From: Psammoneis japonica
Taxonomy: Eukaryota
Length of the DNA: 64,000 bases
Direction: 5' to 3'
Assembly: GCA_008632985.1 (NCBI GenBank)
Contig: QPGO01000125.1
Location: 124,001 to 188,000, forward strand
The position numbers and the translations under genes are program-made. Every line of letters starts with the position of its first letter. Position 1 is the stretch's first letter. Below the pieces are notes generated by a model. The model made no database searches. It was given only the letters and a program-made list of their open reading frames with translations, and was not told where the DNA came from. Of this stretch, positions 7,821-59,850 are shown one piece after another.

Positions 7821-8004
7821 TGTTTCGTCTCGCTCGTTGTTAGGTTGCATGCACAGAGCACCCGGATGCGTCCGTTGAGCGCACACGCCATGGGATGACC
7901 GCGCAGAGTGCCGAGTGCAAGTAAGCGCATTTGCGTCCAAGCACTCGATCGCTCCACGTTGCCATCGAAAAGCCAGTTCGGAGTCGTTGTTATTATCCCG
8001 ATAC

Positions 8005-8025: not shown

Positions 8026-8064
8026 CGCTTCTTCGTTTCCCATACAAAGTCTCGGTAGTACACT

Positions 8065-9576: not shown

Positions 9577-10042
9577 AGTGTCTCTCGTTCGTTTGATTTG
9601 AGTAACCTCTAGAGAGGTAACGGAGTAGGATAGGACGTTGTTTGTCATCGAGCATTATAAGTACACATCTTAGTTGAGTACTACAACTACTAGAAAAGCA
9701 ATAATCATTCAATTCGTTGCTCACGACCGCATGACGATGATCCACGTCTCCAGACAACTTTTGCACGCCATTAACATCGCACTTTCAGTGCATGATTTCT
9801 GAGTGCTCCTAGGTGTACACCTGCTCATTGGAGGCACTGATGCCTATCTCTAACAAGGGCTAGCTCTTCCTGCAGTGCAACTACTAGAGAGTACGGTACA
9901 CTAGATAGTGAGGAGGAGGAGGAGTCATTGAAAATACTGTAGTCTTTCCAGTTTTTCCCTGCGTCCGTCAGTCCCCCCCACCTTGCACCCAACCAGCCAC
10001 ATGCGTGCACGACGCACGACCCTCCCATTCAATCCTATCACC

Positions 10043-10827: not shown

Positions 10828-12665
10828 TCACCAATCTACCTCATCTTCACTTACTTCGGAAACACTTAGCAGTTCCAGATCCTTTTGCGCCAAAGCCTCG
10901 CTATGGTTAAACCATCCCTCGAACTCATGCTCGTACGGAGCTCGTTCAAAACGCGGCTCGAGTGCACAGAAGCACTTTTCTTCTTCTTCCTCCTTTTCCC
11001 TACGCAGCATATGCGGGCTTGTTGACGAAAGTCCTCGAGTGACGGCGTCAGCTGCATCATTGAAGACTCGAGTTCTTTGATTGCAGTCCGTGTTCCGCTT
11101 GGAGCATTTCCCTCTCACCCTGAATTTCAGCCTTGTTTTCTTCTTTCTCTTCACAACTGTTCCTTCCAATCCGCGGTGCTCATCGTATACTTCATCTACT
11201 TTCACCTGCACGTCTTTGACTGTTCGACGGACGGGATCACAAAGTAAGTTGGCCAACCCGTTGTAAGAAAGCCCAAACGCCCTGCCTACCAGTTTTAAGC
11301 TATCCTTGTCCACGTTTTCCATGTTTTCATACTCCACAAAGGCGTACGTTGTGAAGTCCAAGCTTTGGACATTTCTAGGGCAGTCCACTTCCTGAATCTC
11401 AACAACAGCGGTTGCATCATGACCCTCAACCATTTCCTCCGAATCTACCTTGGCCGCTTTTACGGAAGCCTTTTCATCGACCAGCCCTCCACCAGCTTTT
11501 GCTTCTTCTCGCATATCTTCTCCTGTATTCTCCTTGAGCTTCATTCGAGTCTCAGCAGTTTTTATGGCAGCTTTTCTTGCCTCGTCTTCTGCTTCTTTTC
11601 GTTCCTTCTCGGCTTTACTCACGATCTTGTCAGATCGTTTCTGCTGATCCTTCAGTTTCTCTCTCGCCTTTAGGACTTCTTTCTGTGCCTTCTCCAGTTC
11701 ACTCGCCCTTTTTTTACGAATCTCTTTGCTTTCTTTCTCAGCCTTTTCTAACAACTTTGCAAGATCCTTCTTCTGCTTTGCCGAGTCCGCTTCTTCAAGC
11801 GCTTTCTTCGCGTCCGCTTCCTTTTCTTCGGCTTCTCTCACTGCTTTAGATGTTCGACTTTCGACTTCTTCAAGTTTTTTGCTTGCATTCTCTACACCTC
11901 TTTCTACCTCTCTCCACTTTTTCTGAGCTGCCTCTATCTCTTTTTGTGCCTCTGCATCAACCTCCTTTGCTTTTTGGGCCTCTTCTTCGTATTCTTCCGC
12001 CATCTTCATGCTGTCCTTCGCCTCGTCGAGGGAGACACTTTTAATTTCTTTGCGGAAAAATGACAAGAACTCCTTCTCGGTTGGAGCACGATCATTTGAC
12101 TCCTTTGGACAGTCGCAAATGCGATCGGCATCGCCGTCGGTGACTGGCAATTTGTACGTAACCGGCTCGACGAGTAGCCGCGAATTCTGAGGCATGTCCT
12201 TTTTCCAGTGATGGAATGCTAGAGTATCAGCATTACACCTACCGCTGCATTGACCATGAAGTTGATAAAGAATTATTCTTCGAAAGTCAACCTCTCCATC
12301 TACAACCCTCTCGAAGCTTCCCATTGCACGAGCTCGGACGGAATGGACCTTGCGGTAGAGTTTGTCGCAGGGACGTCCCTCCACGGCCTTCTCGGGATCG
12401 TTGAGGCTGATATGTTTCTAATACATGTCGTGCTAGTGCATAGAGCTCAACTTCATCTGGATCCTTCTCCATGTCCTTGCCGTCGTGTTCGATCAGAATC
12501 GACGAGTCAGAACGTTTTGTCCCTCTTGCACACGCGCGCTTCTTTCTCACGTCGTAGGTCACGTGCCTGGCCATTACGCCTTCCAAGCCGTGAATCATGT
12601 CCTTGAACGGTCAATGCGACACCTAAAAGAGATGTCGCGAGCGCTAGGTATAACAAGTATCTCAT
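10828..12665 (-). CDS. Secreted Cys-rich duplicated-domain protein with central K/E/A coiled coil (two apparent frameshifts at ~12510 and ~12410)
   Basis: Signal peptide MRYLLYLALATSLLGVALTVQG. Homology to 4826-5935 continues across frames (VCKRDKTF/DSSILIEHD...ETY/SLNDPEKAVEGRPCDK). Motifs CDCPKESNDRAPTEKEF and CFCA...RAPYEHEF. Confidence 0.7.
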
Positions 12666-12798
12666 GTCAAGACTCGATTTCATTGACGGCAAAGTGTGAA
12701 GTTCTGGAGAGACAATCACTGCTCGCTCTCACACAAAAAGGACGAGGACATGGTGGGGCTTATGAGTACATGGCATCTTGCAGTCATTATGTCCTAAT

Positions 12799-12973
12799 TG
12801 CAAGATCTAGCTTGAGATGACTTGATAAAAGTTGTGGGAGAACCGAGGAGAGACCCCATCATCGCTGATGCAGCCCAAACCTAACGGTTTCCCGTACATC
12901 TAATACGTTAGTTAACACACATATGTCAGAGAGGGCACACTCGGTCATAGAGTACATGTGCCTATCTCATTCA
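12799..12973 (-). repeat. 3' LTR (175 bp)
   Basis: Aligns without gaps to 18221-18395 with 13 mismatches; TG/CA termini. Confidence 0.96.
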
Positions 12974-12985
12974 CTCTTCCCCTCC
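12974..12985 (-). other. Polypurine tract (GGAGGGGAAGAG) of the LTR element
   Basis: ctcttcccctcc on + strand, directly abutting the 3' LTR. Confidence 0.85.
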
Positions 12986-12999
12986 ATGGTGCAAGGAAC

Positions 13000-15900
13000 A
13001 CGCGCACCATTGGAACCACTCGACTAAAATTCAAAACCCACTGCACACGGAGAAGGGAACCCAGACGTTGGGAAGAAACCCTCAACTCCGACACGGCACC
13101 ACACGGCGAATGTTGATTCGCTCGACAACGTGCGGTGCTCGCAGCACCGAAACAGTCCCGTTGGCATGGACTTGCACAATTCGAAACGGACCACAAGCTC
13201 GTTCTTCCAACTTCGAAGGATCCACCGACTTGATTGATGCATCTTGACCAACTAGACAATCGCAGGAATGTCACTTCGCATTCTGTCATCACAGGTTCTC
13301 GTCAATCAACACTTGTCGGTTGGCTTGTGTCGTTGCGAGATCGGAGACAACAGGCAGGTCCAAAATCACATCACGTTGAAACACCAGAGCTCCACTTGAA
13401 ACACCCGCAGACCTTGAGTGGGAGCATCGCAAAGCATGAGAGGCTGCAGCAAGGGCATCGTCCACAATCTGCTCGGCCTGTTGAACATTTAAAGGTGGGT
13501 TGGCAACAACCACAGCACGCAAGACATCAGCTGCCGTCTGGTGCATTCGTTCACAAATGGAGTTGGCTGCAGGATTTCGAGACGTCGTCGGAGCATCAGC
13601 AATGCCCGCTTGATTCAGTGACATTTGGAATTCCCAACCAATGAATTCTCCACCATTGTCATGGATGCATCAATTCGGTCTGGGACAACGAGCCAACCAA
13701 AGGTTGCGAAACTTGTTGGTCACATGCTGAGAAGTTTTGTTGTCAATGCGCACGAGTTCAGTCAATCCAGTGACAGCATCAATGCAAGTGAGAGCGCTGA
13801 ATTCAATCTCTTGATCTTGAATCGGGATCTTCCACGGTCCAATGAGATCAGCTGCCACTTCCATCCACGGAGCTAAAGGCACTTGACGTTGAGGCAACTC
13901 TCCACATCCAGGGCCTGGTTGTTTAAATCGTTGACACGCATCGCAGACAAATTCATTGCAACGTCGCCGCAATGCAGGATGACACATGTGAGTCCGAATG
14001 CTTTCATGCAATTGCACGACTCCACAATGGCCCAATGCACGATGACACCATGCAATGACATCCGGCAACAACGCAGTGGGGGTGCAAATCTTCCAGGCTC
14101 CAGGCGGATCATTCAACTGCAAACGATGACAAATCAGGGGACGATGGTTCACAATCTTGACCACAAACTGCTGCGGATTTTGTTGTCTTTGCTGGTTCAG
14201 TTGGAGGTCTTCGAACTGGAGCTGTTGGATCCTCAATGTCTCAGTGGGATTCGGCATCTCGTCCAGTGTCGGATGATTCAAAAAGCATTCAAACAATTCA
14301 GGCTCGTCGAGCAGAGAGGAAAAGACGGCGTGAGACTCATCAGAAGGAGCAACAGGAGCACGGCAACACTTGAACCTGCAAGCGCCTAACTCCAAATCTT
14401 CCTCGGCCTTGGCCTTGGAATCCAACTTTTCAAAATGAACAATTTTTCCTTTGCGTTTGCTGCTTGGCCCAAGGCTCCTCCCCTCCGAAGGCGGATCCAT
14501 GCGTGGCAGATGAGAAAAACAATCGGCGAGCACGTCATCCTTGCCTTCGACATGCTTAAACGCAGGCACAAAATCTTTGAGGAACAGGCACCAATGAAGG
14601 ACGCGCTGTGCATTCAAAGTGCGAAAGGTGAGATTTTTGTGATCAGTGTGAACAGTGATGTCAGCACCGAGCAGCATCAAGCGAAATTCTCTGAAGCACA
14701 TGACGACGGCCAGTGGTTCCTTTTCCATTGTCGAACAGTTTCGTTGAGCCGTCAAAAGCTTTTTAGACCAACGCGCCACCGGTTTGCCATCTTGAATGAC
14801 AGCGGCGCCCATCTGGCAGTCTGATGCATCGGTGCAAACATGGAATGGCAGGTTGTGGTCAGGGCAGGCCATCAATGCTTCCACCGTGATTGCTGCTTTC
14901 ATTTCATCGAACACTTTCTGACATGATTCCGTCCATTGGAACTGACTTTTGCCTGTCAATTCAGTCAGAGGTGCAAGCAGGTGAGAACGGCGAGGCCACA
15001 TGTTGCGACAACAAGTTGCTGCACCGAGAAACGATCTGAGTTGAGCAGTGTTCTGTGGAGGTTGCATTCGTGGAATCACTTCGACCTTTTTCTTCCACGG
15101 TTTAACACCAGTCGGAGCAAGCCAATGCCCCAAGAAATCGGTTTCTTGAACACACCACTCGCATTTCAATGGATTGGCTTTCAAACCATTCTCTTCGAGA
15201 CGATGTGGCACCTTGTCAAGACGAGAGAGATGGCAATCAAAGTCAGCATCAAACGCTCCAATGTCATCAACATAAGTTTCGACATCCAAACCATGAAGAA
15301 TCTTTTCAACAATGGACTGAGCAACATCTGGAGCTGGCTTCAATCCCACAGCCATGCGACAGCACTGAAACTTTCCGCAGGGAGTTGCAATCGTGGCGAG
15401 CTCTTTGCTTTCATCGTCCAATTCCAAATTGCAGTAGAACACAGTGAGATCCAATTTCGTGAAGAATTTGTAGCCCGCTCTTCGTTGCAGCACATCTTGA
15501 ATGACCGGCAGAGGACAACCCATCGCACTCGACCGTCCTTCTTCGGAGTGACAAAAGTGCCAGCTGCCCATTCCGCAGGTCCACATGGTCGCAGCACGCC
15601 GAGATTCACCAAGTGCTTCAATTCCTTTTTGAATGCTTCTTCATTAACTCGAGCAACAGGAAACGGTTTTGAGTGACAAGGAACAGCGTTTTCATCCACT
15701 TCAAGGTGCACCTTTTCATGAGGACAGTGGCCCAACGTTCCGTCAAACAAGGTCGAATGCTTTTCCAACACCGCTGGCAGTTTCTTCTTTTGTTCTTCCG
15801 TGAGATGGTCCAGATTCCGAACTGCCTCCGCCGGATCCATTGCTTCATGCTTGGCATCGAGCACACAGGTGTCGCATCCGTCGTCGCATCCGTGGTCTGA

Positions 15901-16605
15901 CTCGTCTTCATGATCTTCATCAAATTCATCCATTCGGTCTAAAGCAACACACCAATTGCAGGACTTGGACCAATGACGAGGCTCCTTCATTGGAATTACA
16001 CGGTCTAACCAACGCAGTGTTCTTGTGTCACAGTTCAAATTGAGGCCAATCTTGTCCAAGAAATCTCGACCCAAAATGACATCATGCGCACACGGAGCAT
16101 CGAACACGTGAGCCACACAGCCGTCAATCCTCTTGGTCTTGTCGAATTCCGGCAACGCAATGTCGCTCAGGGCCACCCAACGACCCGACTGGAAAGGACC
16201 TGCAATGGTTTGAAAAGCTTGGACTCCATGTTCGTCAATGGATGGCACGGCTCCTCGAGGTAAAACTTGAGACGAGATCACAGTGTGAGAACCACCTGAG
16301 TCAAACAAGACACGCATCACACGATTCGACTCATGCCGTTGGATCAATTTTGTAACAAGCAGTGCAGATGGGACCAACGCAGCATGCGAGACTTGCGATT
16401 TCATTTTGGGGAGAGGAATGTGACACTCAAACGCATCTTGATCGAACACGTCCCCCTCTTCATTCATGTAATTTTCTGCAGTGTTTTCAAATTCAACAGG
16501 TGACAATTCGTCAGGATTTTCAAAACAGTCAAAAACAAAACATTCATCATTTCTTTCAGGTAAAACACAATCATTTTCATCAACAAATGCTTCTCTCACA
16601 GGCAA
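13000..16605 (-). pseudogene. pol: Gypsy pol (protease, RT, RNase H, integrase), disrupted
   Basis: VLFDSGGSHT protease. PKKDGRVRWV, FTKLDL and YVDD for RT, with a short deletion after RVRWV. TDASD and TDHKNL for RNase H. HHCC zinc finger, DLIGPW, DNGGEF and NSICERMHQ for integrase. Many Tyr->Cys/His changes and several frame breaks. Confidence 0.93.
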
Positions 16606-16710
16606 TTGGGAGCATTCAGCTCCGGAGCATTCAGCTCCTTCTTCTCAGAACTGCCGAGGAAACTGCCGATCTGGCTGAAACCTCGCCACACCTCCACAAC
16701 GTGGAGGGCC

Positions 16711-17900
16711 TCATCCGATCATGTCGAAATGGTGCACGTCACCACGAGGAGCTTCTCGAGCCTGGTTGTCATTGTTCACATTGTCTGCTTGAGCAGCATG
16801 TCCGTCAGCCTGACCTTGGCCTCCACGGTTGTTGTTTTCATTGCAATGATGCTGACCACCACCTTGGTTGCCATTGTTGTTTTGGTGTCCATTGTTGTCA
16901 TTGTTGTCATGACAGGTGCCACGACCTCCTTGGTTCTGGTCACCACGACCACCAAAGCGTCCACCACCTCCACGGCCTTGTCCACGGCCTCCTTGGAAAT
17001 GACCTCCGCCTCGACCTCCACCGCCACGGCCTCCACCTCGACCGCCACGGTTTTGAGGCCCACGACAGTTGGGATTGTTTGGATTGTCATGACACTGGCC
17101 CCACGCATGCCTTCCATGGTGCCACGGGACCGGACACGGGTCATTCGCCTTTGGTTGGCCCTTGCCATCCTTCTTGTCTCGGTCGCCCTTTTTGTCACTG
17201 GAGTTCCCTCCATTGCCATTGTTGGACTTGCGTTTCTTGTTGTCCTGACCATCGGCGAATGCCTTCTCATTGCTCATGCAGGCTTGGATGTCCACCATCG
17301 AGTTCGTAACAAGGTTCTTGCCCGCACGAATGCAAGACTGCTGCCAGGTCAAAGGGAAGGTGCAGAAGATGACACTTTTCTGCTCCTGCTCTGTAAGTTC
17401 AGGAACGGTTCCAGGCAAACGGTTGGTGTGACGAAACAACGTTTCCGTGTGATCAATGTGTGTTTCCGATTCCGCTGAACAAGGCTTTTTGCAAGTGGGC
17501 AAATGCATCTTCATTGTGTCGCGAGCTGTTGGTTTCACGCAGCGCAAATGATGAGCTGAGATGGCCTGATTAAATCGAGCCACCATCCATTGATTCTGTT
17601 GGACACCCGTGGTGACATTTTGCCATTTCGCCTCTGCAGCACCTTGAAGGCGATCCTTGAAAGCATCAAATAATTCTGGTCCGGTGTCACAGTCGAGCTG
17701 TCTTGCCACCTTCCGGAGCCTGTCCTCCACGTGCAACAATGACTCAATTCCATGCTCTCCTGTAAAAATGGGACACATTTTCGAAAGTTTAGCACCATCA
17801 TCAAAGGTTTGAGCGAGCTTCACTTCCTGCAATTCTGAATCCATGAATTTGGTCTTATGCTCAATGAACGCTTTCTCCAAGGTTTCTTGACACATGGCGA
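16711..17900 (-). pseudogene. gag: Gypsy gag-like ORF
   Basis: Upstream of pol in the same orientation. CPVPWHHGRHAWGQC knuckle-like motif followed by RGG-rich and Asn/Gly-rich tail. Start uncertain. Confidence 0.75.
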
Positions 17901-18220
17901 TGAACAATTTCAGCGACCAAACAATCAACAATCCACAAGATGAACGAAACAAAGTGCTCCCAATTGATCCACACAACGAGAACAATCAACAACCAAACAA
18001 GAACAAATTCAATGGCAGCAACACGAGCTTCGAGTTCAAACAAGCGCTGCTCTGAATCGCCAATTTCACGAGCACAACTGCGCGGCGATTCTGATCGACT
18101 TCAAATGAAATTTTCTGCACGCGCTCGCAAATGGATTTTCTCTCTTCTCGATGACACTCTTCGCGTTGTCATGAAACTGACAATGCAATGAACAAGCCAC
18201 AACAACGACTGCAATTACAG

Positions 18221-18395
18221 TGCAAGATCCAGCTTGAGATGACTTGACAAAAGTTGTGGGAGAACCGAGGAGAGACCCCATCATCGCTGATGCAGCCCAA
18301 ACCCAACGGTTTCCCGCATGTCCAATGCGTTAGTTAACATGCATGTGTCAGAGAGGGCACACTCGGTCATAGAGCACATGTGCCCATCTCATTCA
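18221..18395 (-). repeat. 5' LTR (175 bp)
   Basis: Second copy of the LTR, followed on + strand by TSD CTAAT. Confidence 0.96.
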
Positions 18396-19552
18396 CTAAT
18401 TCCTTGAGACATTGTCATTTCATGATGTGGTGTGACATTCATGATTTTACTTGAGGGGGGTCATCCCCGCGTTTATCCTAAAATTACCGTTGCATTTGAA
18501 CAAGGTTTTTCACAGTGTTTATTTTTGAACACAAGAATTGTTCATAGTCACACCCGATCGCGCACGAAAACGAGAACCATCAGCACCGCGACCGAAGCAC
18601 GACGATGATGACAATCATCGACATTTCTCAAAAACGTAGTTTGCCGTCTACCAACTTTTCATGTGCACACAATCTTTGTTACATGACAAACACAAAATAA
18701 ATAAGAGTTGGTAGACGGACCACCTCCGTCACAGACTTATGGCTTGTTGTTTTCACCACGGTGAAGCACGGTGAAATTCAGGAAAAATCATGCAAAACAC
18801 GAGCTATTCGGCCGAATTCGAGCTAAAAAAAGTAGCAACCGACCACCCTTAAAATTTATAATATGAAACCCATAGTCTACTCGTGAATACCGGTATAAAT
18901 GCAGTACCGGTACATACAATGCGACGTGCGTATGTACTTACTTGTACTGAATGTACAGTACAGTAGCTCTGTGACATTCCGATTAAACTATTTTTAAGCC
19001 CTCAATACAGACATTCTCCACCCAATCACATCAGCCTCGCGTCGGAACTCGAAAGGGGAAAGCTCCCTCTAAATCTAGGTAACTCTACTATCTAGTCGTC
19101 GCTATCTCTAGCTAGAAAGTAAGAGCGGACTAGGTGCCGTAGACTACAAGTTGCCCGAGGCCACAATCTGCTACTGTACAGAGACAATCCTTGGGTTCCT
19201 TTCTACTGTACCGTAAAATATTTACTCGTTGGATAGAGGTTGGTCGACAATACGAGAGGGCATCCAACCCGGCCTGGTCCTATGACTAGATCGGGAGGCC
19301 GTATCCTCTCTAGGCCCTCAAAAGCCTAGCTACTCTAGTGTGGGTGGGGACTTTAAGCGGCCAGAAAAACACTCCACGAAAAGGATTAAGTGTCACTCTC
19401 TAGGAAACAAGCCGTTGAACTTTCATTAGATCTCTCCGGCGGTTACTCAAGCAGAAGGAAAGCGACGCAAACGACTCTTTGCTCCTTTCCTCAAAATGGT
19501 GGTTAAACTAGTTACTGCCCCTCCTCCTCTAGATTTCAGCATCAGTGTGCTT

Positions 19553-25036: not shown

Positions 25037-25417
25037 GAAAACAGGCATCAAAAGAAGGAGGAAGGAGGAGGTCAATTAATCACAACAGAGTGATTTATGG
25101 TAGCTCCATTTTTTGAAAAGTGGTAATTCCAGCAATAGAGAGTCACAAGCAAAGTTTCCTTTGTAACATTTATTGTTTCTACGTCGCTTCTTCAAGAGCA
25201 AAAAGGTGATCGATCATCATCGAACAGGAGAATGACAGAAACGAACGAAAACAGGCATCAGAAAGAAGGGGAGGAGGTCTAATCCCAGAGTGATTTACGG
25301 TAGCTCCATTTCTTGAAAAGTTGTAATTCTAGTAATAGAGAGTCACAAGTAAAGTTTCCTATGTATCGTTTCATCTTTCTACGTCGCTTCTTCAAGAGCA
25401 AAAAGGTGATCGATCAT
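25037..25417. repeat. Imperfect tandem duplication (~175-bp units at 25037-25217 and 25247-25417)
   Basis: Both copies run gaaaacaggcatca...cagagtgattta...tttctacgtcgcttcttcaagagcaaaaaggtgatcgatcat. Confidence 0.9.
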
Positions 25418-47327: not shown

Positions 47328-47921
47328 GATGGATGATGGATTGGAAGTGAACAGCGATGCGATGCACCTTTTCTTTTCTCTTTTTGTGAGCGGCTCTGTG
47401 GCGTTGGGAAAAGAGGAGGCGAACTGTTATCCTATTCTACGTAGGAACCAGTACATATCTGAGTATGTAGCTGCCTGTAACCTCTCATAATCGGGTAATA
47501 ACTTATGTCTATCATTGAATAAGATATTTGATGTTCTAGTGACGTTCTTGTTGAAGTTGAGTTTATTCAATATATATGTCTGAAGCAATTAATTCAAAAT
47601 TTGGAACTCGTTTAACGGCAAAACATTCTGAATAACGGTAAATAACTGTAGATATCGATAGTCGATCGACGGAATCACTTTCAACGCGTAGGCAGCATAT
47701 GTGATTTCGTATGTAGTCTCATACCAGGAATGCAGTAGCCAACTGATGTTCTTCTGATGTTCTTGTTGAATTTGAGTTTATGCAATGCTCAGATATGAAG
47801 CAAATGAATAAAAATTTGGGCGGCAAAAAAGTTATTCGCGCAAACGTCAAAATAACCGCATGTTTGAGTTTTATTCCATTGGCAGAGCTCCAGACGACAT
47901 CAATGACCACGAACTAGCTAG

Positions 47922-50900
47922 ACTCTGAACATCGAACCGACAGCCAACAATCAAGTTTCGTTTTGTCGGTGCTTCCAGCGCCAGGAGCACTGTTTGTTGC
48001 TGGCACTCAGCCATGTGTCACACCGTGCAAGTGTGGCACATTGCAAAACTGTCAGGAGGGAGATGAGCCAAGCATTTGAAAGACGTGTGTTCGTCAGAAA
48101 AACGCGAATGCTGAGATTGAAGGACATGCTGCATTTGTCCTTTTTCCACCACTGTGCACTTTCTTGCGCAAGAAAATCTGGCTGATTTTCTCCCATCAAT
48201 TTTTTGTTGCTTCATTTTTCAGATCTGGTTGATGCTTTGAAGTGTCAGCCAGCGCCGCTGTTCTTCTTGATTGCTTGGAGCATCTGTGCAAAAAAAAAAA
48301 AGGTTTTGGTCGGAAGAAGCTGATCATGGCTGCTTTTGCTGCACTTTTGAACTTCTTTTTTTTGTTTCTCTTCCATCAAGCCTGGTTGTTTTTGACAACA
48401 ACGGAAGTCGTTCAAAAATGTTGCAAAAGCCGCCACAATTGACACTTTGTGTTGTGTGAGGGAAAAAAGACAAAATCATGTGGAAATGCACAAAAAAGCC
48501 ATGTGAGAGGGTGGTTGGAGCTGCCAACTTTTTGGGAACTCAACTGAAATTTCATCTGATCAAAGGTGCTTTGACTTGCATGGTGAAGAGCGACACCTTT
48601 GACCAGACAACATCTCAGTTGATTTCCAAGAAATTGACATTCCAGCAGGGATGGGCAGAGAGACTGGCAGCAGTTGTTTCTGGCGGGCACTCTTTCACAC
48701 AATTTCTGCACAATGACTCTGAGAGCCACAATGACTCCCGTCATTCCCACCTTTTTCACAGCAGAAAGAGCTCATGCCGGAAAAGAGCAGCACTCTCTAA
48801 CTCCATTTTTCACAACAAAAATTGCAAAAACTGAGACTTCACACAACAAGTGCACTTGATGTGTGGCTGCAGTTGCTTCAAAAAGATGCAGCTGATTTGT
48901 GGTGTGTCAGTTTTGCATTGGGGCTGAAACAGCAGTGCCAAAGTTTGATGAGTGCAGAGCAACTGAGCTGTTTGAAATGCAGAAGCAGGGGCAACAACAG
49001 GGTGTTGGCAATGTGTGAGAAGAGAAAAAAAAGGTGTGTCAAAAACACAGTGAGTTGAAAAGCTGGTCAGTCAGGAGCCCCCCTCAAGAAGCATCAAAAA
49101 CACCATTGCACCAGTCAAAAAAGCCCACTTGCTTGCTGCTGCATTGCGGCCTTCACAGCTCTGACAGCCTGCCCCTTGTTTTTCAGGCCACAGCTCCTGT
49201 GGCATGGGGCCATTTTTGAGGTGTGCGCAATTTGTGATGTGAGAGACATGAAAAAAATCTTCTTTGATTTGGAGCTCAACTGCCCCATGTGGAGGGCTGA
49301 CTCAGCACCAAACGCAATGATGCACAGAAAATTTTGCAATTTGTCCAATGTTTTGCACAGCATGAGAACACACCTTGAGCCAAATTTTGCTTTGCTCAAA
49401 CTGGAGGGGACCCCTTTCTCTTTCTGAAGATGACAATGCATGCACTGTGCTCTCATGCACCAGCACTCTTGTGACTCTCTTCTTGATCATCCCAAGATCA
49501 AATTGCTGGGCCCTGTGCACATGCACTCACACACTGCATCACTTGTCCTTGTTCCTGGCAAATCACAAAAGGCCCAGGCATTCTGCACAAAACTGTGTCA
49601 AGAGCTGGCACTCTCCTGCATCACCCCAGCTGCAGCGAGCTCTGCCTCTTGCACCAAGCTCAGTGCCAAATGTGCACAAAAAGGCAGGTGGTTGCAAAGC
49701 TTGTTGTTGACTGTGGCTGTGGGACAATTTTTGAGTTGTCACACCATTTTTCTCTGTGCAACATTCAGTTGGCTGCATTGTGCACTGCTCACTTGATGCT
49801 CAAAAAGTGCGAGCTGGTCTGTCCACAACAAAAGGGCTGTCACTCCAAGCTCATTTGAGGGGTCTTTGTGAAACCACATGATGACACATGGCTTGGTGCA
49901 CAACAAAGTTTTTGCACACTTGGCACAACTTTGGGTGGCAACCAAATGTTTGACCCTGCTTGTGATGTGGGTTCTTCATTCACAGCTGGAAGCTGCACAA
50001 TGACCACACCAGCACATCTGCTCATCAGAGAAGAAGCGCAAGTGTGTGGACATGCACAAAATGGCTGTGCTCATTTCTGCCCCATGCTTTGCACAGCTGT
50101 TGCATGGAAAGCTTGCATTGCAACATGTTTGCTGGTGTTTTCCAGCTGTTGGCATGGCCCATGTTGCATGCTCTCCCACAACATGGGCTGCAGAGCTCCT
50201 GACAGGTGCAATCTGCCACAGATTTGTGTTTCATTGCACCATCTTGTGGGTGCAGTGTGCCTCTGTTGTTTTCATGGACAACTCTTGTGGGGCACGGACA
50301 ACAGTCAGCTCCACATTCAGCAACTCTTTGTTCTTGTTTGACAAGTGCCAAATGCTCTGCAATGCACCATTCTGCTTGCGTTTTTTCAAAATGGCCCAGC
50401 TGGGGGTGACACCAGCCAGCTGTCTGCTTCTGCAGCAATGTTGTGCTGAGAGAGACTGTTTCATCTTGGTTGCAACCAGCTGTTTGGCTGACATTTCTGG
50501 CCCTGCAGAAAAAAAGCTTCTGCAGAGGTCAAGGCAGCTTCTGGCATTTCCTCAACTTTTGGGCCACACTTGGTTTCCATGGGGTGGTTGAGAGGGCCAA
50601 GACAACTCAGCATGCGCCCACCACAACCAAGCTGTGTGATGATGTCCCCCCCAGCATGCCACAACTTGTTGGACCCCTGTTCCTTGCATGCTGTTGTTGT
50701 GTGTGCAAACACATCATGGTGTGCTTGGTGCGGAAGACTTCACATGCAAGGTCATCAGTGCACACCAGCACACACCAGCCAAGGATGATGGACCTGAATC
50801 ATTTGGACAGCCCAGCTGAGCACAAAACCAAGCTTTCTCCAACAAAAAGCTTCTGGCCAACTGTCTTGCAACAAAGCTTCTCCAAGTTGACGCGTGAGCC

Positions 50901-53640
50901 ACACCTTGGCACATGCCCTTCAAATGGCTGTCAAGATCCAGGTGCACAAGCAAAACTTTCACAGTGTTTTTGATGCAGCATCTTTGTTGCACACCTGCCC
51001 CCCTGCCCAGAAGCCTCACCTGAAATGTCCAAATGGCACAACCAAACATCTCACATGAAGAATCAACCATTCCCACAAATGTGAGTGAACAGCTTTTTTC
51101 CCCTTTTGTTTGTTGATGATCTGCTCTGCTGCTTTTTGACCTTTTCAGATGACAGCCAAATGCCTTGTTTTGTGTCCCAACAACCAAGGTGCTTTGGCCA
51201 AGTTTGGCAAGCACCAGCTTGACAGTTTCTTGCAGTGTGTTGGTGCCAGCCACAACATCATGTTGTTTCTCAAGATGACTTTCAAAGGACCCCTTTGTTG
51301 CCCTCAGCGAGTCATCCAGACCACCAGATGCAATGTTTCTCTTGAAATGTGGCTGGCATGTTGCGCTGGCCAGCTTTGGCAAACATTGCAACTCATGCTT
51401 TTCCTCAGAAGAAAAATCAAGGAGTCCAAAGTTTCCAGTGGCGCGCCATGCCAAACCAAACAAGTTGAGGAAAGCTGCCCACCAGATGTTCCTGAGCTTC
51501 AGCGGCAGATCAAACCCCAGCCCTTTTTCAGACAGTGACAAATGCCAGTGCTGCCCACTCCAATCTGGCATTTGCTGCTGCAGCCACTTGCAATCAAAAG
51601 CTCCTTGAGCTTGTTCAGCTCCTCTGATGTTTTGCTTTTCTCTCTTGGTGGCTTCCATGTCTTGAGCACATGTTCTTGACCACTGCTTTGACAACGACAG
51701 TGCTCAAATCTTGGTGGTCATTCTTTTCTTTTCATCTGCAATTGACAATGTGTTGCTCTTGTTTTTTTTGCCATTTGCTTCAAATTGTTGTGCTCTTTGG
51801 TCAAGTGCCTGCAACTGGCACAGTGCAAAACATGCCAGATCTGAGTTTTTCTCTCTTCTCATGAGTGATCTCAGACACTCCTGTCTGTTTTTTCCATCTC
51901 TGCACATGTGCAGAATCTTCTTTTCTTTGGTGCATTTTTGAGGTCCAGCTCTTTGTTGGTGGCTTTGAAATGAGCCCTCAAATTCCTTGTGAGCACCGCA
52001 CAGTGCCCCACCAAGCATTTGGCACTCTGCTCTCAAGCAAATCTGCTGACACATTGTCCAGCCCCTCCTTCAGCTCCTGGAGGAAAATCCCCTGGGCAGC
52101 TGCTCAACTCAGCAGCCCTTGTGATGCAGAGTCTCAGGCTCTCACACAATTGTCTCTGCGTCTTTTCATGGAGTGCCCCAAGTGTCACTTTTGCAGCACA
52201 GCACTGTGCTCCTTGGGAAAACTCTTTTCATCACCACATCTGCACTCTCTCCGTGCATCCAATGTTGGTCTTTGCAGCAAGCTCTGTCACTTTGTTGTTG
52301 AGTGTTGTCAGAGCATTCCTGCTCTCTGACATCCTCCAGATGAATGCAGGTGCTTTTCCAGCCCAGCAATGATGTTTTGTTCTTGTGGATGACATGCTCC
52401 TTTAAGCTGTGCAGTGGGAAGAGCAGCTGCTCTTTGTGCTCTGCACTCCAGCACACTGGGGCACAGCATGGTTCAGCTTGCCCACTGGGCTGTCTCTGTG
52501 CACTTGCAAGTTGCTCATCTTGTGCATCTGATGCTTGCCCTTTGCTTGCAGCTCCTGCATTTCAACAAGCATTGCTGAACAGCATTGTTGGCTTCAGCAG
52601 GTTTCTCTGCACACACTTGCACCAGGTGCAGTGCCGCTGTTCCCTGCATGCCAAATTTGGCAACAAACAACCATTGACAAAAATTGCAAGACCATTTTCT
52701 GAGTGCAAAACATTTGGTCACATGAGTTGCACAATCTGCTTGCACATGAGCGTGGGCTTCTCTCATCCACCTGTGAACAGCGGCAAAAGGGTTCTTCGCT
52801 TCAGGCTTGTTGCAAGACTTGGTGAGTGCAGCGTGGCACGCAGCTTGGGTGCAAAGTCTTTTTCCTGCATTTGAGGGACCTTGGGGAGCAGTTGAGTGTG
52901 CAGCCCTTGTGATGTGGGTTTGCTCATGGCTGGGCACAATGGCACAAATGTGCATTTGCTCAGTTGAGTGAGTGTGGGTCGTGTGCACATGGCACATGCT
53001 GCTCATGCTGCACACACACTTTCCACTGCAAAAAGCACTTGTGTCAACACAAAATGCTTGTTGCTGTTGTGAGGAGGACAGGAGTGCATGCTGCTGATCA
53101 TTGAACTCTTTGCCACCACAGACAATGGCTGCAGGATTGTTTTGCAGCTGGCTTGCCAACGTGCTCCTGGTCTGTCTGCAAGCTGTCCCAAAGATCGCCA
53201 TGTGTCGAAAGATGATTTTGTTGCTGTGGTGGCTGCACTCAACTGGGTTTGATCTTGCTCAATCAAAAATGATTTGAGCTGCACCAAGAAAACTCATGAT
53301 GCGTGTGATGGTCATGGAGTCTGCCCAGGCTTTGTCCAAACCATCAACCAGGTTCATGTGGTGCTGGGCGGAACATCCCATTGTCTGAATGTTCTTTGCT
53401 CTTGCCCGCTGTTGACAACCAACATGTCTCAAGCACAGGTGTCAGTGGTTCATTTGTTGAGGTTCTTGCACCTGTCAGAAGCTGAGCATTCTTTTGCTGG
53501 CAAACTTTGACTGGACAATGGCTGGCTCATGGTCACAAAAGGAGCACAAAAAAGTTTCACCTGCAGTGTGGAGAATTGGTGGTGGCAACAAGGATCTGAT
53601 TCATTCAAGACTCACAAAATTGTGAGGCTGCAGGGCTGAT
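47922..53640. mobile_element. Degenerate repeat/transposon-derived block, almost free of TpA and poor in CpG; family not identifiable
   Basis: Only two TpA found by eye in ~5.7 kb (~48798, ~52403). TG/CA-rich, no recognisable protein motifs, no clear termini. TE origin is inferred from its compositional similarity to the mutated LTR element. Confidence 0.55.
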
Positions 53641-54087
53641 TTACCCTCTGGGTTGCTGTTTTAGTGGGCATGAGCAGTGGTTGTGACAAGTTTCATCTGC
53701 AAAACATGATGGTTTGAATGTTTTTGAGCTTTTAAAGGACAACCGTCTCGGAAATGCATGGATTTGAAATGGGCAGCTGCATTTCGGTTGGAGGGGAGGA
53801 GCCCCCCTCTGCTCGATTTGCCTGGTTGTTTCACTTTCGGTCAAAAGAGATGCTATTTTTTGCTTTTTGAATTTCACCACATAGTCGATGATATGGAACA
53901 GTCGTCCTCTGAGCGAGAAAACAATTAGCACCAATCAGATCCGTGTTGTAACATCTCTCATCATGATGTACCGTAGTTCATGGATGTAATGCAAGTCAAG
54001 CGGGACTTGTGAGTCACTTGCTGATTGCTGCAATCGGTGGTCTGCTCTGTCTTGTTTGTTTACAGTTATTCAATTTCTAACGCTAAC

Positions 54088-57415: not shown

Positions 57416-57839
57416 CTTAACGGTAGTGGTCAGATTTCAAAATCTGAGCAATACAGAAATGTCAATGATGAATAAGGATTTTAGATTGCTTCTGCCGTAA
57501 ATATCATTACGCCAATGCCACTAATGAATTCACAAATGAATTTGTATTCCATCCTTTTCCTGAACTTTGATCTATCGGCATTTTCGATACGAGTGCTCGA
57601 CGCGATGACAATGAGGCATGCTTGTATGTGTCATGGCCATAAGCTGTGAGGCGTACCGTCACATTTGGATTGAACTCGGGGATCTTGATGTCGAAAGTAG
57701 CCATTTGTTTGACATTCGTGATTTTTCATCGCCCACAAACTGGGATTTCAACTGAGTCGAGTTGATGTTGGACGTGTTTCAAAGCACTGCGTTTGATGAA
57801 ACAATTGAGGGCTCTGGAATTATGGCATTTTATGCCATG

Positions 57840-59850
57840 GAGACTTAAAACAGCAAATGGGTTGACAATCAAGCAGTGATCGGGTTTGCCAACATTTCCA
57901 AAAATGTGACAACAAAAGTTGCATCACTCAACAACCAACAACATCTCAAGAGATGGAAACAAGAAAAGTGACTCCTCTTTGCACTTGAATTAAAAGAGAC
58001 AACAATGCACAACAAACATTTGAGAAGGACAAGAAGCTCTTGAATGCATGGAACCAGAAGAGAGTCAATGAATCGCTCTTGTTTTGAACCTCTTGACCTG
58101 TTCTGTCCATGATGGTGGTTGGCTGAAAGGTTGGTGGTGGTTTTTTTGTGTGACTTGCAGCTTGAGGCATGTTGATGCATGAACACATGGCCCATGTGTG
58201 GTGTCACCTTTGGAAAGTGCCACTTGTGGAGCTTGAGTGGACAACTCTCTGTGCTCAAGCTTTGTCCGCCAAATGCTCCATCAAAGTCCAGATGATGCTG
58301 CCACATCCCACCCGACCATTGACACAAAACAGTTCTTGCAAAATGTTGTTGCCCATTTCCCTCTTCCTCTGCAGAGCAGCCCTCTTGGTGACAGTGCTGC
58401 CCACATGCCAGAATGTGCTCAAGAATGCTTTCCATTTTGCCAGCAAAGATGCCCAACGCGGGGCTGTGTGGGCTCGAATCTCTCTCAAGACAAGCTGACA
58501 TTTGTGCCTGGCACTGGCGGCAATGCTCAGCCCTCCTTCCTGTTTGACTTCCCAGGAGTGTGCCCAGATCTCCTGCGTGCTGAGTGGCTCAACCACAAGA
58601 GTCACTGTCTTTGTCAGTTTTGTCAGCAGGATGTGCCAAGGCTGCTCTGGCCATGTGTGCGCAAGGACAGCTGCGACAGTGCTTTCTGCTGTCAGCAAAG
58701 AGTGTGAGCTGGCTGGACTGCCCAACCCCACACTTCACAGCTCCTTGGCAGTCACTCCAAATCAAGTGCCAACTTGGGGTCAACCGCACCTGGCTGGTTG
58801 CAATGCAAAGACAGCTGTGGCAGCACTTTGTGACAACAAAGAGAGTGCGAGCTGGCTGGGCTCCCAACCCCACACTTCACAGCCCCTCAGCACTGGATCC
58901 CAATCAAATGCCAACTTGGGGCCAATGGCTGTGAAGCCATCATTGCAAATCCCTGTGCCTGCCCCCTCACACAGCTTTGCACAGGGTCAACATTTGTGGC
59001 CTTTGCAAGATGGGCCCTGGCTGGCTGCTGGCTCTTCAGCCACACGGCTTGCACAACAAGCCACCACAACACAGAGCACTGTGGGGTGAGTGCAGCACAG
59101 CCCAAACAAGCACACCATGCTGAGATCACCCAGAGTTGGCTGCTGTCCTGGGGCTCCATTCAAAGCTGGGCTGGGCTGCTTGGCTCCTTGGTGTGCAGCA
59201 CATGCTTGGCATCACATTCTTGTTGCCAAGCAGCCACATGGCATGTGCCCACCATTTGTGCCTGCAACAGTGACCCCAGCCACAAAGAAGCCAACAAAAA
59301 GTTGAACCTGGTTTTGTGGTTGAAGAGTGAAGAAACTGTGAGTGAAGTTTGGTTCAAGATTTGTTGGCAATGCCAAGTGGGCAACCAAAGAGAGGCGCCA
59401 AAAATGGCCATTCTCGCTCATTTCTCAAGAGGAGCTTGCGCTCATGATGCAGGGTCTGAAGCAAGCACCAGCCAAGACAACAGTTTTTTCTCTCTGCCCC
59501 ACTTAAAACACAGCCTTTGAGTCAATGTGGTGCTCCTTCAACAACTCACGCACACTGGGAAGAGCAGCTGGAGCCAGGGCAGCTGGCCTGGCAGGGCTTG
59601 GCTGACACCCAAGCTGGGCTGCTCAGCCTGGTGGCACACACTCAGTGCCACATTGTCACCCTCCTGCAACTGCAATGTGCCCCACTCTTTGCACCTGCAG
59701 CAACCACCCTGGATCAAAAGAAGCCAGTGCAACTCTGGCCATGGTTGCATGGTCAATTGTGTGTGTGTGTTCAACGGTTGATTCCCCTCTTTTTTTCTCT
59801 TTTCCTTTAACCGGCCACGAACATGAAAAAATTGCCGAAACTTCCCTTGA
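57840..59850. mobile_element. Second degenerate TpA-depleted, CpG-poor repeat-like block with an internal ~85-bp duplication
   Basis: The only TpAs seen are four TTAA sites (~57846, 57991, 59504, 59807). Internal repeat 58699-58783 vs 58842-58925. Confidence 0.5.

What the first reader, a model, noticed from the sequence alone, without database searches (positions are those of the whole stretch)
12974..18220. Sequence-context fingerprint: surviving TpAs are almost all TAA or TTA, and only TTAA survives in one heavily hit block
Seen (manual count): 25 of ~28 residual TpAs in the element interior are in TAA and/or TTA context. The three exceptions are CTAG (~13253) and GTAG (~15435, ~15471). 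Both survivors in 47922-53640 are TAA (CTAAC, TTAAG). All four in 57840-59850 are TTAA. At block edges TTA/TAA sites reappear first (53641-53735, ~57820-57846). Inference: this is enzyme-like substrate preference (VTAB sites preferred, TTAA most resistant), which argues against generic GC-biased drift or gene conversion.
Basis: seen in the sequence. Interest (0 to 1): 0.85.

Follow-up and report, generated by a model that had tools for sequence, protein, structure and literature searches.

The report
TpA-erasing hypermutation with flank fingerprint
In a diatom-like genome, a retrotransposon and two other blocks have had nearly every TA step rewritten to CA or TG after insertion, and the few TAs left sit almost only in TTA/TAA (above all TTAA), which looks like the sequence preference of a still unidentified DNA-editing genome defence.

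Summary
25 of 28 TpAs in 12976-18220 lie in TAA/TTA. The exceptions are CTAG 13253 and GTAG 15435 and 15471. Block 47922-53640 keeps CTAA and TTAA, and 57840-59850 keeps four TTAA. This is not chance. Only 37.5% of TpAs in the window's other DNA, and 43.8% in 54 related non-depleted elements, have such flanks (p=1.7e-8; p=7e-7). Over all three tracts 44 of 48 survivors do. Estimated survival is TTAA 0.31 and VTAB 0.019.

The host is a diatom by homology. The element is a Ty3/gypsy LTR retrotransposon with a 5-bp target duplication. Its two LTRs differ only by TA versus CA/TG transitions, so the damage came after insertion, on DNA. Among conserved protein columns, A/T-to-G/C changes lie at TpA in 35 cases and elsewhere in 2. 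That excludes generic GC-biased drift.

The process matches the TpA hypermutation shown in 2026 in the chlorarachniophyte Bigelowiella natans. That preprint's text gives no flank rule. My searches found no diatom report.

New here are the diatom host, the NTAN rule and a sense-strand A-to-G bias. The enzyme is not identified; adenine deamination is an inference.

The parts
12794..12798 (.). Target-site duplication CTAAT, left copy
   Evidence: The same 5 bases stand just outside both LTRs (alignment; sequence). This shows a single insertion with cognate LTRs.
12799..12975 (-). 3' LTR (in element sense), 177 bp, TG...CA; only lightly mutated (2 of 14 inferred ancestral TpA sites changed)
   Evidence: the repeat finder D1; LTR alignment. 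It keeps 12 TpA. It is 100% identical to the other LTR in the purine/pyrimidine alphabet (148 of 148 30-mers).
12976..18220 (-). Internal region of a Ty3/gypsy element (gag, protease, RT, RNase H, integrase), inactivated; 28 TpA left of about 282 expected
   Evidence: Pfam hits RVT_1, RT_RNaseH, RT_RNaseH_2, Integrase_H2C2 and Asp_protease_2. tblastn of 120 homologues. TpA list. Baseline expectation. Tyr>Cys/His and related changes.
18221..18397 (-). 5' LTR (in element sense), heavily mutated: 11 of 14 inferred ancestral TpA sites changed; survivors TTAG, TTAA, ATAG
   Evidence: All 13 differing columns are TA versus CA/TG transitions.
18396..18400 (.). Target-site duplication CTAAT, right copy
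18401..18530 (.). About 130 bp of flanking, higher-copy repeat DNA that is CA/TG-rich; its TpAs are all TTA/TAA (TTAC, TTAT, CTAA, TTAC, TTAT)
   Evidence: Contig depth is 8061 in 18503-18700, against about 3000 over the element and 61 in the left flank. The tract is therefore shifted relative to the element.
47920..53740 (.). Second tract: TpA 2 of about 363 expected, CpG 50 of about 317 expected, CA+TG about 1.86 times expectation; origin unknown
   Evidence: None of 16 ORFs has a Pfam hit under E=0.01. The protein atlas gave nothing. No LTR or TIR appears in the RY alphabet.
57700..59850 (.). Third tract: within 58001-59500 TpA 0 of about 84 and CpG 16 of about 104 expected; only TTAA (4) plus two TTAT at the left edge survive; sharp right edge at about 59850
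   Evidence: No Pfam hit in 6 ORFs.

Best explanation
These are tracts of silenced repeat or foreign DNA in a diatom nuclear genome. After integration, a region-targeted DNA-level process converted TpA to TpG or CpA, that is A:T to G:C at the A of 5'-TA-3' on either strand.

Shown here:
- The change is post-integration.
- It is made of transitions only and is confined to TpA.
- It acts by region, not strictly by element.
- It is flank-dependent. TpAs with neither a 5' T nor a 3' A go first, RTAY fastest. TTA/TAA go slowly, and TTAA goes last.
- In the retrotransposon the sense strand is hit about 2 to 5 times more often than the antisense strand.

Inferred:
- The agent is a sequence-selective adenine deaminase (A to hypoxanthine, read as G). 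It would require T at -1, favour a pyrimidine at +1, and disfavour A at +1 and T at -2.
- One flanking T:A pair then shields both strands, and TTAA is the only doubly shielded word.
- It probably works on exposed single strands in heterochromatic or foreign DNA.
- Its effect is to destroy Tyr codons, TATA-like and poly(A)-like signals, and TAA/TAG stops, which kills the element.
- The CpG loss in the two older blocks is ordinary 5mC decay of methylated repeats laid on top.

My odds are about 0.9 for the DNA-level TpA process with a real flank preference, and about 0.5 for adenine deamination as its chemistry.
For: Post-integration, on DNA:
- The LTRs share the target duplication CTAAT.
- They differ at 13 columns, all TA versus CA/TG.
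- They are 100% identical in purine/pyrimidine code.
- The 5' LTR changed at 11 of 14 ancestral TpA sites and the 3' LTR at 2 of 14.
- About 130 bp of flanking DNA is affected too.

TpA-specific:
- In 448 conserved columns, 72 differ: TA>TG 23, TA>CA 12, CpG transitions 10, other A/T>G/C transitions 2, other C/G>T/A transitions 1 or 2 (one of them could equally be a transversion), transversions 13, and two or more changes 10.
- Of 21 conserved Tyr, 12 are now Cys, 4 His, 3 Tyr, 1 Arg and 1 Phe.
- Dinucleotide budget against 54 relatives: TA -48.6 per kb, TG +48.4 per kb, CA +2.5 per kb. AA, AT and TT lie within 1.3 SD.

Flank rule:
- At codon-boundary T|A sites, TAY was mutated in 10 of 10 (17 of 17 at the looser cut) against 2 of 4 for TAA. 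Both survivors are TTAA.
- Tyr>His (T>C on the sense strand) occurs only where the 5' base is G, 4 of 4. Counted by hand, that is 4 of 6 against 0 of 10 (Fisher p about 0.008). It means the antisense A was followed by C.

Strand bias:
- Tyr gives 12 Cys against 4 His.
- The 5' LTR shows 7 sense A>G against 4.

Precedent:
- In Bigelowiella natans mutation-accumulation lines, 230 of 231 new mutations in two integrated viral regions were A>G or T>C, all at TpA.
- That genome also has 124 TpA-poor, CpA+TpG-rich clusters, with reverse-transcriptase and DDE genes enriched among its TpA-depleted coding sequences (bioRxiv 10.64898/2026.01.13.699255, Results and Discussion read).
- A TadA-derived editor variant edits A within YAC (PMC13109818, passage).

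Not a lone oddity: contigs of a public run hold 56% of the element's sampled 31-mers, 543 pieces are 99% or more alike, and differences among copies are mostly transitions.
Against: - No deaminase or other enzyme was found. No genome is held for this window.
- Ancestral states are inferred from distant homologues (65% identity at most) and from composition, not from a family consensus. Read laying printed 40 of 1572 difference rows, and those 40 were uninformative.
- A strictly additive per-strand model fits poorly. TTAC on the sense strand survives in 7 of 22.5 expected, although sense TAY is otherwise the best target. An extra -2 T effect has to be assumed.
- In the 5' LTR, 3 of 3 VTAA sites were mutated, and 4 sense-strand hits had G at +1. 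The preferences are therefore relative, not absolute.
- The second tract kept only 1 TTAA of about 10 expected, so TTAA is slow, not immune.
- None of 79 related metagenomic elements shows the signature. The process is not general to diatom gypsy elements in that sample.
- The two LTRs are identical in sequence yet were treated differently. That is unexplained by any homology-guided targeting.
Confidence: 0.6

Rival explanations
1. The mutator hits every TpA alike. The NTAN fingerprint is written by repair: the lesion (hypoxanthine or a mispair) is removed more efficiently when flanked by T:A pairs, so TTA/TAA sites revert and VTAB sites fix.
For: The data are survival counts. They cannot separate formation of a lesion from its repair. 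A symmetric effect of one flanking base pair on both strands is what a duplex-reading repair enzyme would give.
Against: The direction of change depends on the strand-specific +1 base. Tyr>His occurs only with a 5' G (4 of 4). TAY boundary sites were mutated 10 of 10 against 2 of 4 for TAA. The flank effect is asymmetric between the strands (7 to 12 fold against about 2 fold). Both points fit a strand-reading mutator more simply.
Confidence: 0.15
2. The target is thymine, not adenine. A dioxygenase of the TET/JBP kind oxidises T at TpA (5-hydroxymethyl- or 5-formyl-uracil) in silenced DNA. The modified base mispairs with G and gives T>C, the same footprint read from the other strand.
For: TA>CA and TA>TG are mirror images, so the sequence cannot say which base was attacked. 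Preferential hydroxymethyluracil at TpA in dinoflagellate DNA is recalled from the literature and was not checked here.
Against: No such modification is known to me in diatoms (recall). The only experimental precedent, the B. natans preprint, proposes adenine deamination, also without proof. A 5'-T requirement with a +1 pyrimidine preference resembles the context of TadA-type enzymes.
Confidence: 0.12
3. The element's RNA was hyper-edited (A-to-I, ADAR-like, 5' U preference) and then reverse-transcribed, so the copy was already mutated when it was inserted.
For: A>G on the sense strand predominates. The family is highly repeated.
Against: Both LTRs of a new copy are made from the same template and must be identical, yet here one is changed at 11 of 14 sites and the other at 2 of 14, within one insertion bounded by a target duplication. 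Flanking non-element DNA is affected. Sense-strand T>C changes exist (12 of 35). The two other tracts show no retroelement features. ADARs are metazoan and favour G at +1 (recall), whereas TAG is relatively spared here.
Confidence: 0.04
4. Assembly artefact: heavy base modification of repeats (at TpA and CpG) made a long-read consensus miscall A as G and C as T. The true DNA would still have TA and CG.
For: The platform of the assembly is unknown to me. Systematic consensus errors at modified motifs are known for nanopore data (recall). The two blocks lose exactly the two self-complementary pyrimidine-purine steps.
Against: A public run holds 56% of the element's sampled 31-mers, and 543 laid pieces are 99% or more alike. 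With a change about every 19 bases, almost no 31-mer would match if the changes were errors, unless that run is the assembly's own data. The element also carries frameshifts and CGA>TGA stops. Real TpA mutations of this kind were measured with short reads in B. natans.
Confidence: 0.04
5. There is no special process: generic GC-biased drift, biased gene conversion, or native TA avoidance of this element family.
For: TpA is under-represented genome-wide (rho about 0.66 in the window's background). Related elements range from 0.45 to 1.08.
Against: Rho TpA is about 0.09 in the element and about 0 in the other two blocks, beyond all 79 relatives. A/T>G/C changes lie at TpA in 35 cases and elsewhere in 2. 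Conserved Tyr is replaced in catalytic domains. Sister LTRs differ only at TpA. The block edges are sharp.
Confidence: 0.01

Closest known systems
TpA-targeted hypermutation of integrated NCLDV and virophage DNA in Bigelowiella natans (Mettrop et al., bioRxiv 10.64898/2026.01.13.699255; abstract, Results and Discussion read, supplements closed)
   Same: Only TpA>TpG/CpA transitions occur. The process is regional, with normal DNA next door, and it hits foreign or mobile DNA. The long-term footprint is TpA-poor, CpA+TpG-rich clusters that include reverse-transcriptase and DDE genes. The second and third tracts here (mean CA+TG 1.86 and 1.85, lowest rho TpA 0) meet that paper's cluster thresholds (rho TpA 0.43 or less, rho CpA+TpG 1.52 or more). 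The retrotransposon's mean CA+TG of 1.49 is just under.
   Different: The host here is a diatom (stramenopile), not a chlorarachniophyte (rhizarian). The best-resolved target is an LTR retrotransposon of a family with many copies. The preprint's text has no occurrence of 'context', 'flank', 'trinucleotide' or 'CpG', so the NTAN rule, the sense-strand bias, the LTR asymmetry and the coupling with CpG loss are not described there. Its Figure 2B and supplements, which I could not see, might show flanks. Here there is no experimental rate, only the footprint.
Repeat-induced point mutation (RIP) of Neurospora and other fungi
   Same: It is a genome defence that riddles repeated DNA with transitions at one preferred dinucleotide, on both strands, and leaves neighbouring unique DNA alone.
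   Different: The direction is opposite. RIP turns CpA into TpA and enriches TpA, while here TpA is erased and CpA/TpG enriched. RIP mutates C, not A/T. RIP acts on both copies of a duplication, whereas here two identical LTRs fared very differently.
TadA/ADAT2-ADAT3 tRNA adenosine deaminases and TadA-derived adenine base editors
   Same: They deaminate A to inosine, read as G. The natural target A34 always follows U33 (recall), which corresponds to the TA requirement. A TadA-8e A48E editor edits A within YAC (PMC13109818, passage), which resembles the T-A-pyrimidine preference inferred here. The B. natans preprint names an ADAT2 homologue as its candidate.
   Different: Natural enzymes act on tRNA. 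DNA activity in nature is reported only for amphioxus and trypanosome ADAT2, as cited in the preprint and not read by me. No such gene could be sought here because no genome is held.
ADAR hyper-editing of double-stranded RNA
   Same: A>G changes with a preference for U before the edited A, aimed at repeats.
   Different: It acts on RNA, is not inherited, and belongs to animals. It favours G after the A (recall), whereas TAG is relatively spared here. The LTR asymmetry shows a DNA-level event.
APOBEC3 hypermutation of retroelement cDNA
   Same: A deaminase with a short sequence preference inactivates retroelements by clustered transitions with a strand bias.
   Different: It deaminates cytosine (G>A on the plus strand) before integration. 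Here the change is A:T>G:C after integration.
5-methylcytosine decay at CpG in methylated diatom transposons (DNMT5a-dependent methylation; PMC9998398, passages read)
   Same: It explains the CpG>TpG/CpA loss in tracts two and three (CpG 50 of about 317 and 16 of about 104 expected). It also explains the 10 CpG-type replacements in the retrotransposon.
   Different: It cannot touch TpA. The retrotransposon lost 90% of its TpA while keeping CpG at 0.82 of expectation, so the two processes are separable.

Membership tests
TpA hypermutation of integrated foreign DNA (Bigelowiella natans type) | Changes are A>G / T>C transitions that fall on TpA only | tested here: met
   All 13 differing LTR columns are TA versus CA/TG, and the LTRs are 100% identical in RY code. 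There are 35 TpA-type A/T>G/C replacements against 2 outside TpA in 448 conserved columns.
TpA hypermutation of integrated foreign DNA (Bigelowiella natans type) | TpA depletion coupled to CpA+TpG enrichment in clustered windows | tested here: met
   Three tracts of 2 to 6 kb have a lowest rho TpA of 0 and mean CA+TG of 1.49, 1.86 and 1.85, against a background rho TpA of 0.66 and CA+TG of 1.15. On the sense strand TA falls by 48.6 per kb and TG rises by 48.4 per kb.
TpA hypermutation of integrated foreign DNA (Bigelowiella natans type) | Targets are mobile or foreign DNA, not host genes | tested here: inconclusive
   Tract 1 is a Ty3/gypsy element of a high-copy family. Tracts 2 and 3 have no recognisable domain or terminal repeat, so their origin is unknown.
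TpA hypermutation of integrated foreign DNA (Bigelowiella natans type) | Measured, ongoing elevated mutation rate in the tract (mutation-accumulation lines) | not testable with these tools
   Only contigs of one older sample were available. No lines or population data exist for this organism.
Fungal RIP | C>T at CpA, giving TpA excess and CpA/TpG deficit | tested here: not met
   The opposite is seen: TpA is nearly absent and CpA/TpG roughly doubled.
Fungal RIP | Both copies of a duplicated sequence are mutated | tested here: not met
   One LTR was changed at 11 of 14 TpA sites and its identical partner at 2 of 14.
ADAR-type RNA editing fixed by retrotransposition | Changes arise before integration, so both LTRs carry the same changes | tested here: not met
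   The LTRs differ at 13 columns within one insertion bounded by the duplication CTAAT. Flanking DNA is also changed.
GC-biased gene conversion / GC-biased drift | A/T>G/C changes irrespective of neighbouring base | tested here: not met
   35 changes at TpA against 2 elsewhere. AA, AT and TT lie within 1.3 SD of relatives.
TadA/ADAT-like DNA adenine deaminase as the agent | A deaminase gene of that family that is present, nuclear and active on TA in DNA | not testable with these tools
   No genome is held for the window. Only the context resemblance is available: T at -1 and a pyrimidine favoured at +1.

The most novel reading that the evidence does not exclude
Diatoms possess the same TpA-erasing genome defence just discovered in a chlorarachniophyte. 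It would then be an old or repeatedly acquired system of SAR-lineage algae. It is carried out by a strand-reading DNA adenine deaminase whose four-base fingerprint can now be written down: T required at -1, pyrimidine favoured at +1, A at +1 and T at -2 disfavoured, hence RTAY first and TTAA last. It prefers the non-template strand of the element. The fingerprint gives a direct biochemical test for candidate enzymes, and it points to a natural sequence-selective DNA A-to-G editor.
Probability: 0.4. Interest if true: 0.85.

Novelty: new member of a known kind. Interest (0 to 1): 0.72.

Why it matters
Natural hypermutation systems known in detail deaminate cytosine (RIP, AID/APOBEC). A DNA-level A:T>G:C system aimed at TpA has been reported only in one 2026 preprint, in one alga, with no enzyme and no flank rule in its text.

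Seeing the same footprint in a diatom, a different major lineage and a globally important group of algae, would show that the defence is not a curiosity of one species.

The NTAN ranking, the strand bias and the sharp, element-shifted borders are the constraints that any candidate enzyme and targeting pathway must reproduce. They can be tested directly on oligonucleotides.

There are practical consequences:
- Such tracts mimic long open reading frames, because TAA and TAG vanish, and can mislead gene prediction.
- They blur transposon annotation.
- They bias local GC and mutation-rate estimates in algal genomes.
- A natural DNA adenine deaminase with a defined context would interest base-editing research.

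Tried and rejected
- Family consensus from reads: read laying showed that the family is highly repeated, but it printed only 40 of 1572 difference rows. Those rows come from a divergent gag stretch: 8 transversions and mixed contexts. They say nothing about context.
- Same-family protein copies: the 'near' and 'shorter' searches found nothing above 68% identity, so no close paralogues were available for ancestral inference.
- Related elements in metagenomes: none of 79 loci is hypermutated (rho TpA 0.45 to 1.08). Rho TpA does not correlate with the TAA/TTA share (Spearman -0.15, p=0.20). They served only as a baseline.
- Identity of tracts 2 and 3: no Pfam hit under E=0.01 in 22 ORFs. tblastn with 120 gypsy proteins found nothing there. 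The protein atlas scored 0.75, below the level of a lead. There are no terminal repeats even in the purine/pyrimidine alphabet.
- Earlier notes of this scan: none exist for this genome or sequence. The word hits were unrelated phage cases.
- A purely additive per-strand model with only a +1 preference: rejected as incomplete, because sense-strand TTAC survives too well.
- Bigelowiella natans as the source of the window: rejected. All named relatives of the MiaB-like host gene and of the element are diatoms, at 54 to 65% and 43 to 45% identity.
- PMC10953296 was opened for the YAC preference. Its 'YAC' means yeast artificial chromosome.
- PMC9258296 has nothing on this subject.

Full report
THE OBSERVATION

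I listed every TpA with its flanks. The interior 12976-18220 holds 28:
- TTAA 6, CTAA 5, GTAA 7, ATAA 2
- TTAG 2, TTAC 2, TTAT 1
- CTAG 1 (13253), GTAG 2 (15435, 15471)

Block 47922-53640 keeps CTAA (48798) and TTAA (52403). Block 57840-59850 keeps four TTAA.

At the edges only TTA words stand between the empty block and normal DNA. These are 53642 TTAC, 53662 TTAG and 53733 TTAA on one side, and 57821 TTAT, 57831 TTAT and 57846 TTAA on the other.

The depletion is extreme:
- 13001-18000: 27 TpA against about 312 expected.
- 48001-53500: 2 against about 363.
- 58001-59500: 0 against about 84.
- CpA and TpG are raised 1.5 to 1.9 fold.
- In the last two blocks CpG has also gone (50 of about 317; 16 of about 104). 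In the first it has not (252 of about 309).

IS IT MORE THAN CHANCE?

In 48.3 kb of the window outside the blocks, 37.5% of TpAs have a 5' T or a 3' A and 4% are TTAA. That gives p=1.7e-8 for 27 of 31 in 12976-18397.

A fairer baseline is the element's own kind. I fetched 79 related Ty3/gypsy loci from metagenomes. None is hypermutated (rho TpA 0.45 to 1.08). The 54 with ordinary TpA and CpG (267 kb, sense strand) predict about 282 TpA in the interior, 43.8% of them in TAA/TTA. The 25 of 28 observed then gives p=7e-7.

Estimated survival by class:
- TTAA 6/19.4 = 0.31
- TTAB, sense strand, 14/54.2 = 0.26
- VTAA, sense strand, 5/49.9 = 0.10
- VTAB 3/158.6 = 0.019
- The four RTAY words: 0 survivors of about 80 expected

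A Poisson model with flank terms beats uniform survival (p about 1e-6). A 5' T on the sense strand is worth 7 to 12 fold and a 3' A about 2 fold. A pyrimidine/purine coding fits nearly as well. Over all three tracts with their edges, 44 of 48 survivors are TAA/TTA and 13 are TTAA (p=6e-15 or 3.5e-12).

WHAT THE THING IS

The window is diatom DNA by homology:
- It has long intron-poor ORFs.
- It has an HA domain and an LCIB-type carbonic anhydrase domain.
- All named relatives of its MiaB-like gene are diatoms: Seminavis 65%, Cylindrotheca 65%, Amphora 60%.
- The named relatives of the element's polymerase are also diatoms, Nitzschia and Mayamaea.

Region 12799-18397 is a complete Ty3/gypsy LTR retrotransposon on the minus strand:
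- 177-bp LTRs, TG...CA.
- A 5-bp target duplication, CTAAT.
- gag, protease, RT, RNase H and integrase.
- It is dead, with frameshifts, two CGA>TGA stops, and catalytic-domain Tyr replaced.

The family is highly repeated. Contigs of a public run pile up to a depth of about 3000 over the element against 61 in the left flank. Differences among copies are mostly transitions: A>G 292, T>C 255, C>T 399 and G>A 354 places, against 26 to 40 for each transversion type.

The other two tracts have no recognisable domain, relative or terminal repeat. What they once were is unknown.

WHEN AND ON WHAT THE CHANGE HAPPENED

The two LTRs of one insertion are identical when it lands. Here they differ at 13 columns. 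Every difference is TA in one against CA or TG in the other, or CA against TG at a site that must have been TA. In purine/pyrimidine code the LTRs are 100% identical (148 of 148 30-mers).

Of 14 inferred ancestral TpA sites, the 5' LTR (18221-18397) lost 11 and the 3' LTR (12799-12975) lost 2. About 130 bp of neighbouring repeat DNA beyond the 5' LTR is also CA/TG-rich, with only TTA/TAA left.

So the process acted on DNA after integration. It acted over a region that is shifted relative to the element, and it stops about 380 bp upstream of the neighbouring gene at 10828-12417. This rules out editing of the element's RNA before reverse transcription. It also speaks against purely homology-guided targeting, since two identical LTRs fared differently.

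SPECIFICITY

I aligned 120 homologous polyproteins to the element by tblastn. 448 columns are conserved in at least 70% of them, and 72 differ in the window:
- TA>TG: 23
- TA>CA: 12
- CpG transitions: 10
- A/T>G/C transitions outside TpA: 2
- Other C/G>T/A transitions: 1 or 2 (one of these could equally be a transversion)
- Transversions: 13
- Two or more changes needed: 10

Of 21 conserved Tyr, 12 are Cys, 4 His, 3 Tyr, 1 Arg and 1 Phe.

Against the 54 relatives the element's sense strand has lost 48.6 TA per kb and gained 48.4 TG per kb. CA is up by only 2.5 per kb. AA, AT and TT lie within 1.3 SD. This is not general GC-biased drift or gene conversion.

DIRECTION AND FLANKS

- Tyr>His (T>C on the sense strand, meaning the antisense A was hit) occurs only where the base before the codon is G, 4 of 4. 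Counting by hand, that is 4 of 6 His-or-Cys outcomes with a 5' G against 0 of 10 with other bases (Fisher p about 0.008). The antisense A was then followed by C.
- Of all 12 TA>CA events, 8 have a 5' G, 3 a 5' C, 1 a 5' T and none a 5' A.
- At codon boundaries where the T is still present, T|A followed by T or C was mutated in 10 of 10 cases (17 of 17 at a 50% cut). T|A followed by A was mutated in 2 of 4, and both survivors are TTAA.
- Sense-strand A>G outnumbers antisense: 12 to 4 at Tyr, 7 to 4 in the 5' LTR, and more by the dinucleotide budget.

These are relative preferences. In the 5' LTR all 3 VTAA sites were changed, always on the T side. The deeply mutated second tract kept 1 TTAA of about 10 expected.

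MECHANISM

The simplest account is an enzyme that attacks the A of 5'-TA-3' on one strand at a time:
- T is obligatory at -1.
- A pyrimidine is favoured at +1.
- A at +1 and T at -2 are disfavoured.

One flanking T:A pair places a bad -2 on one strand and a bad +1 on the other. A single TTA or TAA therefore shields both strands, and TTAA is doubly shielded.

Deamination of adenine to hypoxanthine, which is read as G, gives the right change. tRNA adenosine deaminases always see U before their A (recall), and a TadA-derived editor variant edits within YAC (PMC13109818, passage).

The sense-strand excess would fit exposure of the non-template strand. I could not test that. The sequence cannot distinguish an attack on A from an attack on the paired T, for example by oxidation. 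It also cannot distinguish a mutator's preference from context-dependent repair. Both are listed as rivals.

The CpG loss in the two other blocks is what methylated diatom transposons would suffer with time (PMC9998398, passages). It is separable, since the retrotransposon lost 90% of its TpA while keeping its CpG.

WHAT IS KNOWN

One preprint describes this kind of process (bioRxiv 10.64898/2026.01.13.699255; abstract, Results and Discussion read, supplements closed). Its main points are:
- In Bigelowiella natans mutation-accumulation lines, 231 of 302 nuclear point mutations fell in two integrated viral regions.
- 230 of those were A>G or T>C, all on TpA.
- The genome has 124 TpA-poor, CpA+TpG-rich clusters, and reverse-transcriptase and DDE-endonuclease domains are enriched among its TpA-depleted coding sequences.
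- An ADAT2 homologue is proposed as the agent, without proof.

Its text contains no 'context', 'flank', 'trinucleotide' or 'CpG'. A figure or table I could not see may show flanks.

Four full-text searches that combined diatoms with TpA, CpA, TpG, hypermutation, RIP or transposable elements turned up no report of such a process in diatoms. That covers the held library only.

VERDICT

The underlying process is a new member, in a diatom, of a kind known from one very recent preprint. The flank fingerprint, the strand bias and the LTR asymmetry add constraints that were not in print in the text I could read.

The main weakness is that ancestral states rest on stand-in baselines and distant homologues. 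The decisive test is an alignment of the family's many genomic copies.

Noticed in passing
window 6701-8000: A further TpA-poor stretch (lowest rho TpA 0.07, mean CA+TG 1.41, CpG 0.72). It carries a 415-aa Ser/Leu/Pro/Cys/His-rich minus-strand ORF with no Pfam hit. Its 9 TpAs are mixed (TTAA 2, TTAT 2, TTAG, GTAA, GTAG 2, ATAG). It may be an older or partly hit tract, or only skewed composition (the plus strand is purine-rich).
   Followed up: partly
window 48001-53500 and 58001-59500: The two saturated tracts have also lost CpG (50 of about 317; 16 of about 104 expected). AT is low and GC high, as by-products of ATA/TAT and GTA/TAC conversion. With TAA and TAG gone, long ORFs open in all six frames (up to 329 aa) and could be mistaken for genes.
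   Followed up: partly
window 18503-18700: The DNA to the right of the element is itself a repeat of higher copy number (contig depth 8061, against about 3000 over the element and 61 in the left flank). The retrotransposon therefore sits at the border between unique and repeated DNA. The spared LTR is the one next to the unique side.
   Followed up: no
window 12829 joined to 18202 (run X1, one contig): One contig joins the left LTR to the end of the interior, skipping 5372 bases with 4 other letters between. This may be a deleted or solo-LTR-like form of the family elsewhere in the genome.
   Followed up: no
window 59980-60130: Just right of the third tract lies a TpA-rich run of CTAC/CTAG/GTAG triplet-like repeats. 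It is a sharp contrast with the TpA-free block that ends at about 59850.
   Followed up: no
window 25086-25417; 57298-57395; 47529-47819: Short tandem or direct repeats: 200-bp period at 91% identity, 54-bp period, and 215-bp spacing at 79%. The last lies just left of the second tract.
   Followed up: no
window 14773 (codon, minus strand): One conserved Tyr is now CGT (Arg). Both bases of the TpA appear to have changed, which a strict TpA-only process cannot do in two steps. The ancestor may not have been Tyr, or there is some activity off TpA.
   Followed up: no
window 8059-9576 (+), 33093-34922 (+), 60262-62541 (-), 63014-64000 (+): Ordinary host genes with normal TpA lie around the tracts. 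They are a J-domain-like protein with a Pro/Ala-rich middle (which explains the low TpA at 8901-9600), a NatB auxiliary subunit, a MiaB/CDKAL1-like radical-SAM enzyme and an LCIB-type carbonic anhydrase.
   Followed up: partly
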